A stretch of 64,000 bases of DNA. Source: a virus. Its lineage: Duplodnaviria > Heunggongvirae > Uroviricota > Caudoviricetes. The notes under the pieces are model-generated. The model saw only the letters and a list, made by a program, of their open reading frames with translations, was not told the origin of the DNA and did no database searches. The stretch lies in the IMG/VR virus record IMGVR_UViG_2541047959_000009. One strand, given 5' to 3'. Position 1 is the first letter of the stretch; each line of letters starts with the position of its first letter. The translations under genes were made by a program, and so were the position numbers. Of this stretch, positions 11,127 through 12,536 are shown piece by piece.

Positions 11127-12536
11127 TTACTCATCTACTCTGATTTTTTGTTTTTTATTATTTTGAGTTAAGACATTTATGGTAATAGATGTATACGGAT
11201 GAAAGTCAGGCACTATACTTTTAACCTCTCCATTTTCAAGAAAATGATGTGCTATTGAAGGAAATAAATCAGGATCTACAGGATATTTAGCATTAGGATT
11301 ATGATACATATTTAAACCTTCTGCCCATGTTTCTGTAATATCGCCTTCTTTCACTTCAAAACTAAATGCTGCTGGATATAATGCCTCTGGGTCATGATCA
11401 TGGCAGTAACCACTCCTAAATAATCTAAGGTCACTTCTTCCAAAACCAGCCAGTTTTCCCATCCGATTAAACTTCGATATAGTACCACTATTAGAACTAA
11501 GGACGGCCGAAATATTTTCAGACTCATCCAAGAAGAAAAAGCCTGAAGGAATTTCCTTTTTCTCAAATTGATGCGATATAATTTTCTTAGTTGCTAAACT
11601 GTAACATCCATCTTCAGATTTAACATGCTCATAGCGAATACCATAAAGATACTGCCAAAGTGCACTATGGGACCAAATCATAGAGTTTGGTTCATGAAAA
11701 TCAGCAATTGCGAAAATTAAAGGATTCCCCTTAACATGTTCTAGATCCCAGTATCGAGTTTTCTTTTTCAGTTTAGAATAGAGAGAACTTCCAAATTTAA
11801 TCGGCATATAATTCTCTATTTTCTCTAGCAATTCTTCCTTACTTTTAGGTTCAGATAGCATTTCAGATGATTGATTAATATCATTCCCTGTTGGATTAAC
11901 CGTTACAGCTTCAATGCAAATAGTATTACCATACTTACGTGCCACATAATCAGGGGCATTAAACTGCCTATCTAGCCAAAAGTGTTCCTCTCGTAAATAT
12001 GCGAAAAGATATAACTCCCATAGCCGGGCATCAAAACCTGTTGTCTGAAACTGCTCTATAAAATTCCCGTCGACATCCTCAAAATGATTCATCATTTCCT
12101 TGATTATCCCTGTTGCAGGCGACCAGTTCGCATATTTACCAAATAATGAAAAATGATGATGAAGTTTATCTGGTGTAACTATAGGTGTGAATAAATCCAT
12201 TGCTTTATAAGTTTCATCACCTTGTGGAAATACTTTTACGTTTAATTTAGTATGCTTCCGCATTAATTTCTTTAGTTTTGCTCGTGCAGAATTCATTTCT
12301 GAAACACTAGTAAATAGGTCAATACATCTATATCTCCCACTTAAGTCTCTTGCTAAAACAATACCGCTATAATCTTCATCGATTTGATCCAATAATAGTG
12401 CCCCTAGCAGGAACTCTCTCGGACTACAGTACCACTCAAACTCATAGCCTAAAAGTTCAGTATTTGGCATTCTGGTCCAATCAACAAAAGCATTAAACCT
12501 CTCTTTACTCATTTTTTTTATATCAAGAAAAGACAT
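11127..12536 (-). CDS. Hypothetical 469-aa protein, AT-rich cargo between portal Q and cos (candidate anti-phage gene)
   Basis: Long ORF with GAGGT RBS before ATG at 12536; AT-rich; no Walker A seen; sits in the P2 Q/cos/A variable region. Confidence 0.6.
   Translation of the reverse strand: MSFLDIKKMSKERFNAFVDWTRMPNTELLGYEFEWYCSPREFLLGALLLDQIDEDYSGIVLARDLSGRYRCIDLFTSVSEMNSARAKLKKLMRKHTKLNVKVFPQGDETYKAMDLFTPIVTPDKLHHHFSLFGKYANWSPATGIIKEMMNHFEDVDGNFIEQFQTTGFDARLWELYLFAYLREEHFWLDRQFNAPDYVARKYGNTICIEAVTVNPTGNDINQSSEMLSEPKSKEELLEKIENYMPIKFGSSLYSKLKKKTRYWDLEHVKGNPLIFAIADFHEPNSMIWSHSALWQYLYGIRYEHVKSEDGCYSLATKKIISHQFEKKEIPSGFFFLDESENISAVLSSNSGTISKFNRMGKLAGFGRSDLRLFRSGYCHDHDPEALYPAAFSFEVKEGDITETWAEGLNMYHNPNAKYPVDPDLFPSIAHHFLENGEVKSIVPDFHPYTSITINVLTQNNKKQKIRVDE

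What the first reader, a model, noticed from the sequence alone, without database searches (positions are those of the whole stretch)
11127..12536. Unassigned 469-aa cargo gene between portal Q and cos of the P2/186-like prophage
A single long AT-rich ORF (good GAGGT RBS) sits between the hairpin after portal gene Q and a cos-like site, converging on Q. In P2-family phages the Q/cos/A region is the known tin/old anti-phage hotspot, but this protein has none of the signatures I looked for (no Walker A, so not Old-like; not a nuclease motif I could confirm). That makes it the strongest candidate here for an uncharacterised defence gene.
Basis: partly seen in the sequence, partly recalled or inferred. 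Interest (0 to 1): 0.75.

Follow-up and report, generated by a model that had tools for sequence, protein, structure and literature searches.

The report
Known PD-T7-1 anti-phage gene in prophage
The 469-residue gene next to the packaging site of this P2/186-like prophage belongs to PD-T7-1, a single-gene anti-phage family first described in E. coli in 2022, so it is a real defence-type cargo gene but not a new one; how the family works is still untested.

Summary
The ORF is real: 11127-12536, minus strand, 469 aa, GAGGT ribosome-binding site, in a 35% GC island. It lies between the hairpin after portal gene Q and a genuine cos site (12635-12653).

It is not unassigned. PADLOC's PD-T7-1 model matches it end to end (E 1.3e-196). 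PD-T7-1 is a single-gene anti-phage system found by functional selection in E. coli (Vassallo 2022). It acts on T7 and more strongly on T-even phages, and another PD-T7-1 gene, from strain NILS69, protected in a 2025 study. This exact protein (WP_000008839) is already listed as P2-hotspot cargo in Rousset 2022.

The slot is variable. The cos-DinI flank occurs in 586 of 5,426 complete E. coli genomes, but this gene in only 25. Sister prophages carry a TIGR02391 or a PIN-domain protein there.

The mechanism is inferred: a nuclease effector with a ~105-aa accessory domain that is N-terminal, C-terminal or absent across the family.

The tested ECOR46 protein is probably a different lineage (449 aa, ~33% identical), so this allele's own activity is inferred. 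It is an ordinary member of a known kind, of low interest.

The parts
11127..12536 (-). PD-T7-1 family gene (469 aa; identical to WP_000008839.1, annotated 'hypothetical protein' in E. coli S88)
   Evidence: ORF. PADLOC PD-T7-1 E 1.3e-196, aa 7-457 against model positions 2-449 of 452. 100% identical in S88, MS7163, N53 and BEN5202. Purifying selection.
12222..12536 (-). Accessory domain, aa 1-105 (alpha + 4-stranded beta sheet + alpha). Absent from PD-T7-5 and phrog_8571, and optional or permuted across the family.
   Evidence: PD-T7-5 and phrog_8571 matches start at aa 108-113. Secondary structure from the AF2 model. In P0185 the same domain is C-terminal (31% id, E 2e-10). Among 150 representatives it is N-terminal in 93, C-terminal in 23 and absent in 34.
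11169..12203 (-). Conserved core, aa 112-456, shared with PD-T7-5 and phrog_8571: helical region, endonuclease-like domain and a beta-rich C-terminal domain
11697..12035 (-). Restriction-endonuclease-like (PD-(D/E)xK-type) core, aa 168-280. Candidate active site: E174 (12015-12017), D196 (11949-11951), E209-A-V211 (11904-11912), K255 (11772-11774).
12543..12547 (-). Shine-Dalgarno GAGGT, 6 nt upstream of the ATG
   Evidence: Sequence.
11084..11106 (.). 10-bp hairpin shared by the 3' ends of Q and the cargo gene. It has a U/A-rich tail only on the minus-strand transcript.
   Evidence: dG -14.7, z -5.0 (plus strand) and -4.2 (minus strand). Relatives have different hairpins here.
12635..12653 (-). 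cos cohesive-end sequence GGCGTGGCGGGGATACGAG
   Evidence: Aligns to the annotated P2 cosL/cosR with flanks. The conserved backbone shared with relatives starts at ~12628.
10975..12628 (.). Exchangeable cassette: the divergent AT-rich last ~35 codons of Q, the hairpin, the cargo gene and its upstream region, ending ~7 bp from cos
   Evidence: Alignments with phage 813R9 and p13P477T-2. GC profile. Sister prophages carry other genes here.
10045..11079 (+). Portal gene Q (flanking anchor)
   Evidence: S88 annotation.
12858..13091 (-). DinI-like gene (flanking anchor on the A side of cos)
   Evidence: S88 annotation.

Best explanation
The gene encodes a member of the PD-T7-1 family, a stand-alone single-protein anti-phage system. 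Here it is carried as lysogenic-conversion cargo in the cos-adjacent variable slot of a 186/P2-like prophage.

**Shown here**
- Family membership.
- Single-gene organisation.
- Position in a slot that holds different defence-type genes in sister prophages.
- A restriction-endonuclease-like core with an invariant acidic triad.
- Strong purifying selection.

**Taken from the literature (for other alleles)**
- PD-T7-1 cloned with its own promoter lowers plating of T7 and, more strongly, of T-even phages, without affecting adsorption.

**Inferred**
- After phage DNA enters, the core acts as a metal-dependent nuclease. E174, D196 and E209 would bind the metal. K255, on the following helix, would replace the lysine missing from the E-A-V strand. 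The enzyme would cut phage (or replicating) DNA.
- The ~105-aa terminal domain is a detachable regulatory or sensing module, because the family tolerates it at either end or not at all.
- This particular 469-aa lineage is active. That is inferred by homology only.
For: **Family membership**
- PADLOC PD-T7-1 full-length match, E 1.3e-196. PD-T7-5 matches the core at 1.4e-56.
- Phage family phrog_8571, E 5e-152.

**Literature**
- PD-T7-1 is a validated single-gene system from ECOR46, labelled 'Nuclease'. It is stronger on T-even phages than on T7 and has no adsorption effect (PMC9519451).
- The NILS69 PD-T7-1 protects against a Teseptimavirus and shrinks T7 plaques.
- The Q/A interval is the known P2 hotspot. 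WP_000008839 is listed there.

**Slot variability**
- The flank occurs in 586 genomes and the gene in 25.
- Sister prophages carry a TIGR02391 protein, a PIN-domain protein or another gene in the same slot and on the same strand.

**Homologues in other defence contexts**
- Same slot in an Erwinia prophage.
- Next to type I RM genes in Burkholderia.
- In a P4-like satellite in Klebsiella.
- Next to TIR or GmrSD genes.
- In a lambdoid phage.

**Structure and conservation**
- AF2 pLDDT 89.5, pTM 0.90.
- Invariant D156, R171, E174, P195-D196, E209 and K255.
- dN 0.16 with saturated dS.
Against: - No allele of this lineage is known to have been tested. The ECOR46 ORF is 450 codons, the length of the other E. 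coli lineage, which is 33% identical to this protein. Its sequence could not be retrieved.
- The ExK lysine is replaced by V211, so catalysis is not assured.
- No Pfam or PDB sequence match.
- No sigma-70 consensus promoter was found in the 98 bp between cos and the ATG.
- The host prophage has a frameshifted replication gene, and two strains carry IS1-disrupted copies.
- Whether PD-T7-1 gives direct immunity or abortive infection could not be read from the text available.
Confidence: 0.8

Rival explanations
1. Same family, different mode: an abortive-infection toxin. The endonuclease-like core is kept silent until infection. It then degrades host DNA or tRNA and kills the cell before phage release.
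For: - 12 of the 21 systems in Vassallo's screen behaved as Abi.
- An optional, relocatable accessory domain would suit an autoinhibitor.
Against: - 7 of the 11 nuclease-like systems in the same study gave direct immunity.
- Which class PD-T7-1 falls in was not recoverable from the text or tables.
- Core-only relatives exist without an obvious partner antitoxin. The gene after P0209 is a small HNH protein, not the accessory domain.
Confidence: 0.3
2. A non-catalytic (pseudo-nuclease) DNA-binding protein that blocks phage replication or packaging without cutting.
For: The canonical lysine of ExK is V211 in ≥90% of members. Structural similarity to active nucleases is only moderate.
Against: E174, D196 and E209 are strictly invariant, and so is K255, across 33-48% identity. 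That pattern is expected for a metal site, not for a degenerate one. Active PD-(D/E)xK variants lacking or relocating the Lys are known (established knowledge, for example BamHI and BglII).
Confidence: 0.1
3. A selfish or homing-type endonuclease, or another phage-benefit function unrelated to defence. Its presence next to cos would reflect its own mobility.
Against: - Family members were selected and validated for phage protection.
- Homologues sit in RM, TIR and GmrSD neighbourhoods and in satellite hotspots.
- Unrelated genes (PIN, TIGR02391) occupy the same slot with the same boundaries, so the slot rather than the gene explains the position.
Confidence: 0.05
4. An inactive passenger in a decaying prophage.
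For: The replication gene A is frameshifted by a 26-bp tandem duplication. There are IS1 insertions in the gene in two strains. No clear promoter was found.
Against: The ORF is intact and at least 99.6% identical in 23 of 25 genomes. All family-invariant residues are present. dN is far below dS against the Erwinia orthologue.
Confidence: 0.05

Closest known systems
PD-T7-1 (E. coli ECOR46, RCQ85672.1; Vassallo et al. 2022, PMC9519451)
   Same: The family model matches over the full length (E 1.3e-196). It is a single gene with the same three-part architecture and a weak Hjc/PDDEXK signal in the same region. It is carried by prophages and defence islands.
   Different: The ECOR46 ORF is 449 aa and this one is 469 aa. 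The only other E. coli lineage I found is 449 aa, sits in lambdoid prophages, and is 33% identical to this protein. The tested protein is therefore probably that lineage, and this one's phage range is untested.
PD-T7-5 (E. coli UMB0934; same study)
   Same: Homologous core, aa 113-436 (E 1.4e-56). Also labelled 'Nuclease', also single-gene, also selected on T7.
   Different: PD-T7-5 lacks the ~105-aa accessory domain and is a more divergent clade. Core-only relatives of this protein still score higher on the PD-T7-1 model.
P2 old and tin (the classical cargo of the A-Q interval)
   Same: Lysogenic-conversion genes in the cos-adjacent variable interval of a P2-family prophage, with their own expression signals.
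   Different: No sequence relation: no Walker A or Toprim, and no PADLOC hit to Old or Tin. In P2 they lie between A and cos, whereas here the cargo lies between cos and Q.
Single-protein PD-(D/E)xK defence nucleases such as Shedu SduA, Upx and HamA
   Different: No sequence or profile match. The flanking domains differ and the active-site strand reads E-A-V rather than ExK.
Hjc Holliday-junction resolvase and XisH-like endonuclease fold
   Different: These are ~120-aa minimal nucleases. The similarity is at fold level only and gives no evidence for junction specificity.

Membership tests
PD-T7-1 defence family | Full-length match to the family profile used by PADLOC | tested here: met
   PDLC04073 E 1.3e-196, 651.7 bits, aa 7-457 against positions 2-449 of 452. 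The score is as high as for the Klebsiella relative P0075 (651.3 bits) and higher than for the other relatives tested.
PD-T7-1 defence family | Single-gene system (no obligatory partner) | tested here: met
   The gene is alone in the Q-cos slot. Neighbours differ completely among homologues.
PD-T7-1 defence family | Reduces plating of T7 or T-even phages when expressed from its own promoter | not testable with these tools
   Shown for ECOR46 and NILS69 genes only.
PD-T7-1 defence family | Close identity to an experimentally validated protein | tested here: inconclusive
   RCQ85672.1 could not be retrieved. Its ORF length (449 aa) and the HHpred coordinates fit the lambdoid lineage, which is 33% identical.
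P2-family cos-adjacent defence hotspot cargo (Rousset 2022; Vassallo hotspot #1) | Lies between replication gene A and portal gene Q, next to cos | tested here: met
   Order is Q, hairpin, gene, cos, DinI, A.
P2-family cos-adjacent defence hotspot cargo (Rousset 2022; Vassallo hotspot #1) | Content varies among otherwise near-identical prophages | tested here: met
   586 genomes have the flank and 25 have the gene. Alternative cargo is found in 813R9, p13P477T-2, W5-6 and EC6563. WP_000008839 is listed in Table S5A.
PD-(D/E)xK (restriction-endonuclease-like) superfamily | [quoted passage not shown] | tested here: met
PD-(D/E)xK (restriction-endonuclease-like) superfamily | Catalytic E...(P)D...(D/E)xK signature | tested here: inconclusive
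   E174, P195-D196 and E209 are invariant, but the third motif is E-A-V. An invariant K255 lies on the next helix.
OLD family nucleases (P2 Old) | N-terminal ABC-type ATPase with Walker A, plus Toprim domain | tested here: not met
   No Walker A. No Pfam or PADLOC hit to Old.

The most novel reading that the evidence does not exclude
PD-T7-1 proteins may be a distinct class of gated nuclease. The ~105-aa domain is found N-terminal, C-terminal or missing among relatives. It could be a cis-acting sensor or inhibitor that docks on a Lys-relocated endonuclease site and is displaced by a phage cue. The untested 469-aa P2-slot lineage could have a phage range different from the tested alleles.
Probability: 0.25. 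Interest if true: 0.45.

Novelty: already known. Interest (0 to 1): 0.2.

Why it matters
For the scan, it matters mainly as a correction. A gene that looks 'unassigned' by eye is picked up at once by a defence-system profile library, and it sits in a hotspot that two 2022 papers already mapped.

The residual value is modest. The mechanism of PD-T7-1 is still unknown. This analysis gives testable catalytic residues (E174, D196, E209, K255). It shows that the family's accessory domain is permuted or optional. It also flags that E. coli holds two lineages only ~33% identical, of which the P2-slot lineage may never have been tested.

Tried and rejected
- **Pfam, single protein and all 65 family members:** nothing meaningful.
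- **NCBIfam:** nothing.
- **PDB by sequence profile:** only a chance hit to gramicidin synthetase, E 0.8.
- **Foldseek against PDB:** nothing below E 0.18.
- **afdb50 library:** not available.
- **Divergent E. coli copies by blastn:** only the same 25 genomes.
- **Retrieving the ECOR46 protein through cluster membership:** not among the listed members.
- **Abi versus direct immunity for PD-T7-1:** searched Vassallo's text and tables, but the answer is only in a figure.
- **Rousset's clone from S88 (pFR103, 'Putative HEPN'):** checked whether it is this gene. It is a different gene from outside the window.
- **Accessory domain as a separate adjacent gene in core-only relatives:** the neighbour of P0209 is a small HNH protein with no similarity.
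- **Consensus promoter scan:** no sigma-70-like site between cos and the start codon.
- **Old/Tin-like identity:** rejected.
- **Structural or packaging role:** rejected, because the gene is present in only 25 of 586 prophages with this flank.

Full report
**1. Observation**

- A GAGGT Shine-Dalgarno lies 6 nt upstream, at 12543-12547.
- The gene sits in a sharply bounded AT-rich island. GC is 0.30-0.37 between ~10980 and ~12600, against 0.52-0.58 in the terminase/portal genes and in gene A.
- It converges on portal gene Q (10045-11079, plus strand).
- The two genes are separated by a 10-bp hairpin at 11084-11106 (dG -14.7 kcal/mol, z = -5 against shuffles).
- The 'cos-like site' is a true cos. 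The minus strand at 12653-12635 reads GGCGTGGCGGGGATACGAG. With its flanks it aligns to the annotated cohesive end of P2, aagcgggcg|GGCGAGGCGGGGAAAGCAC|tgcgcgc.
- The protein has no Walker A motif.
- The window corresponds base for base to the E. coli S88 chromosome, where the gene is annotated 'hypothetical protein', WP_000008839.1.
- It is a real coding gene. Against the 74%-identical orthologue in the same slot of an Erwinia prophage, dN is 0.16 while synonymous sites are saturated.

**2. Identity**

General libraries say nothing. Pfam gave no hit for the protein or for 65 relatives, NCBIfam gave none, and there was no PDB sequence match.

The defence-system library answers at once. PADLOC's PD-T7-1 model matches residues 7-457 to model positions 2-449 of 452 (E 1.3e-196, 651.7 bits). 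PD-T7-5 matches residues 113-436 (E 1.4e-56). A phage protein family of unknown function, phrog_8571, covers 108-465.

PD-T7-1 is one of 21 systems recovered by functional selection of E. coli fosmid libraries (Vassallo et al. 2022, PMC9519451):
- It is a single ORF from ECOR46, labelled 'Nuclease'.
- It was cloned with its native promoter.
- It had no effect on adsorption.
- It protected more strongly against T-even phages than against T7, the phage used to select it.
- Its only domain hints were weak HHpred matches to Hjc, PDDEXK_5 and RmuC around residues 171-219.

A PD-T7-1 gene from strain NILS69 later protected K-12 against a Teseptimavirus and reduced T7 plaque size. None of the 16 papers in the library that mention PD-T7-1 has it in its title or abstract; of the six I opened, none reports a mechanism.

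**3. Context**

Rousset et al. 2022 and Vassallo et al. 2022 both describe the A-Q interval next to cos as a reservoir of defence systems. WP_000008839 itself appears in Rousset's table of hotspot arrangements as 'hypothetical'.

I confirmed the variability directly:
- The cos-DinI flank (12629-13300) is present at 80% coverage or more in 586 of 5,426 complete E. coli genomes. The gene is present in 25.
- Some prophages have the same terminase and DinI proteins but a different gene in the slot. W5-6 and phage 813R9 carry a 383-aa TIGR02391/Hypoth_Ymh protein. EC6563 carries a 381-aa PIN-domain protein. p13P477T-2 carries another ORF. All are on the same strand.
- Alignment shows the conserved backbone resuming ~7 bp beyond cos, at window ~12628. 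On the other side, similarity decays inside the last ~35 codons of Q, from ~10975. Each cassette brings its own hairpin.
- One point differs from the P2 textbook case. In P2, tin and old lie between A and cos, and only ~140 bp separate cos from the Q terminator. Here the cargo lies between cos and Q.

**4. The family and its neighbourhoods**

The family is large:
- More than 3,700 homologues at 90% clustering.
- 1,778 clusters at 50% identity with E<=1e-3, and 452 with E<=1e-30.

Homologues occur in several settings:
- The same prophage slot in Erwinia.
- Beside hsdS/hsdM in Burkholderia.
- In a P4-like satellite in Klebsiella.
- Beside a TIR gene and beside GmrSD in metagenomic contigs.
- Among tail genes of Klebsiella Peduoviridae.
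- Between the replication and Q-antiterminator genes of lambdoid phage mEp460_ev081.

No neighbour is shared among these settings, which fits a self-sufficient single-gene system.

E. coli holds two lineages. One is this 469-aa P2-slot form, found in 25 genomes. The other is the 449-aa lambdoid form, found in 201 genomes. They are 33% identical.

The ECOR46 ORF spans 450 codons, that is 449 aa. Its HHpred Hjc match starts at residue 177, which is the conserved glutamate of the lambdoid lineage. I therefore infer that the validated prototype is the lambdoid lineage, but I could not retrieve its sequence to prove it.

**5. Anatomy and likely mechanism**

AlphaFold2 with a 65-sequence alignment gives a confident model (pLDDT 89.5, pTM 0.90) with three parts:
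- An alpha / four-strand beta / alpha domain, residues 1-105.
- A beta-rich C-terminal domain.

A separate model of residues 120-300 (pLDDT 82) returns a list made up almost entirely of restriction-endonuclease-fold proteins:
- tRNA-splicing endonuclease, Hjc at 6.3 and VRR-NUC at 6.3.

In 59 relatives of 33-48% identity, the invariant residues are D156, R171, E174, P195, D196, E209, K255, F334, F356, R358, E402 and N413. E174 on the first helix, P195-D196 at the start of the second strand, and E209 on the third strand are the canonical positions of a PD-(D/E)xK site. However, the third motif reads E209-A-V211. The invariant K255 on the following helix is my candidate for a relocated lysine. 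This is an inference, because I could not access the model coordinates.

The most likely mechanism is therefore a metal-dependent nuclease effector. Whether it cuts phage DNA (direct immunity) or host nucleic acid (abortive infection) is open.

**6. A feature of the family noticed on the way**

The N-terminal ~105-aa domain is a movable module. Among the 150 best 50%-identity representatives it is N-terminal in 93, C-terminal in 23 and absent in 34. In P0185, for example, residues 362-460 match residues 6-105 of this protein at 31% identity (E 2e-10). The absent group includes the PD-T7-5-like architecture, which still defends according to Vassallo.

This suggests a regulatory or sensing accessory rather than part of the catalytic machinery. 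I looked for the domain as a separate adjacent gene in a core-only relative and did not find it. The neighbour there is a small HNH protein.

**7. Verdict**

- **Observation:** confirmed.
- **Interpretation:** partly supported. Cargo in the hotspot, probable defence, and not Old/Tin-like are all right. 'Unassigned/uncharacterised' and 'no nuclease motif' are wrong.
- **Novelty:** already known at the level of kind. Any PADLOC-type annotation flags the gene.
- **What remains open:** the untested status of this particular lineage and the unknown mechanism of the family.
- **Interest:** low (0.2).

Noticed in passing
window 561-2261 (+): An AIPR-family protein (PADLOC AbiU, E 1.7e-24) is inserted between baseplate gene V and the virion-morphogenesis/tail genes of the same prophage. 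This is a second variable slot carrying a defence-type gene.
   Followed up: partly
window 13444-15884 (-), duplication at ~13816-13867: Replication endonuclease gene A is frameshifted by a 26-bp tandem duplication (CCCCTTGGACTCGTGGCAATAACTGT x2) relative to the intact gene in strain W5-6. The prophage is probably replication-defective while its defence cargo is intact.
   Followed up: yes
window 20591-27873: Just beyond the prophage integrase lies a defence-island-like cluster:
- an unknown 407-aa ORF
- a REase-domain protein (22555-23343)
- PD-T4-3, a GIY-YIG protein (23935-24708, E 8.5e-136)
- a DinI pseudogene
- a full-length type IV methyl-directed restriction enzyme (25760-27649)
- a recombinase fragment

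The tail genes of a second prophage follow.
   Followed up: partly
window 10975-11079 (3' end of Q): The last ~35 codons of portal gene Q are AT-rich and diverge among otherwise near-identical prophages. The exchange boundary of the hotspot cassette therefore lies inside Q, and each cassette carries its own terminator hairpin.
   Followed up: partly
window 12628-12857: The cargo abuts cos on the Q side, within ~7 bp. About 200 bp on the A/DinI side of cos are conserved non-coding sequence. In P2 the arrangement is the mirror image, with tin and old on the A side.
   Followed up: partly
family-wide (P0183, P0185, P0200 and others against window aa 1-105): The ~105-aa accessory domain of PD-T7-1 proteins is N-terminal in 93, C-terminal in 23 and absent in 34 of 150 representatives, a domain permutation.
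   Followed up: yes
L006 4989-6338 (phage mEp460_ev081) and E. coli genomes: A second E. coli PD-T7-1 lineage (449 aa, 33% identical) sits between the replication and Q-antiterminator genes of lambdoid prophages. It is found in 201 of 5,426 complete genomes, eight times as many as the lineage in this window.
   Followed up: partly
NZ_CP050031.1 and NZ_CP050036.1 (hits H16, H17): In two broiler-chicken E. coli strains, the same gene is interrupted by an IS1 element.
   Followed up: no
L016 4151-4588: A core-only PD-T7-1 relative is followed, 6 nt downstream, by a 145-aa protein with an HNH-type motif and preceded by a TIR-domain gene. This may be a small multi-gene defence cluster.
   Followed up: no
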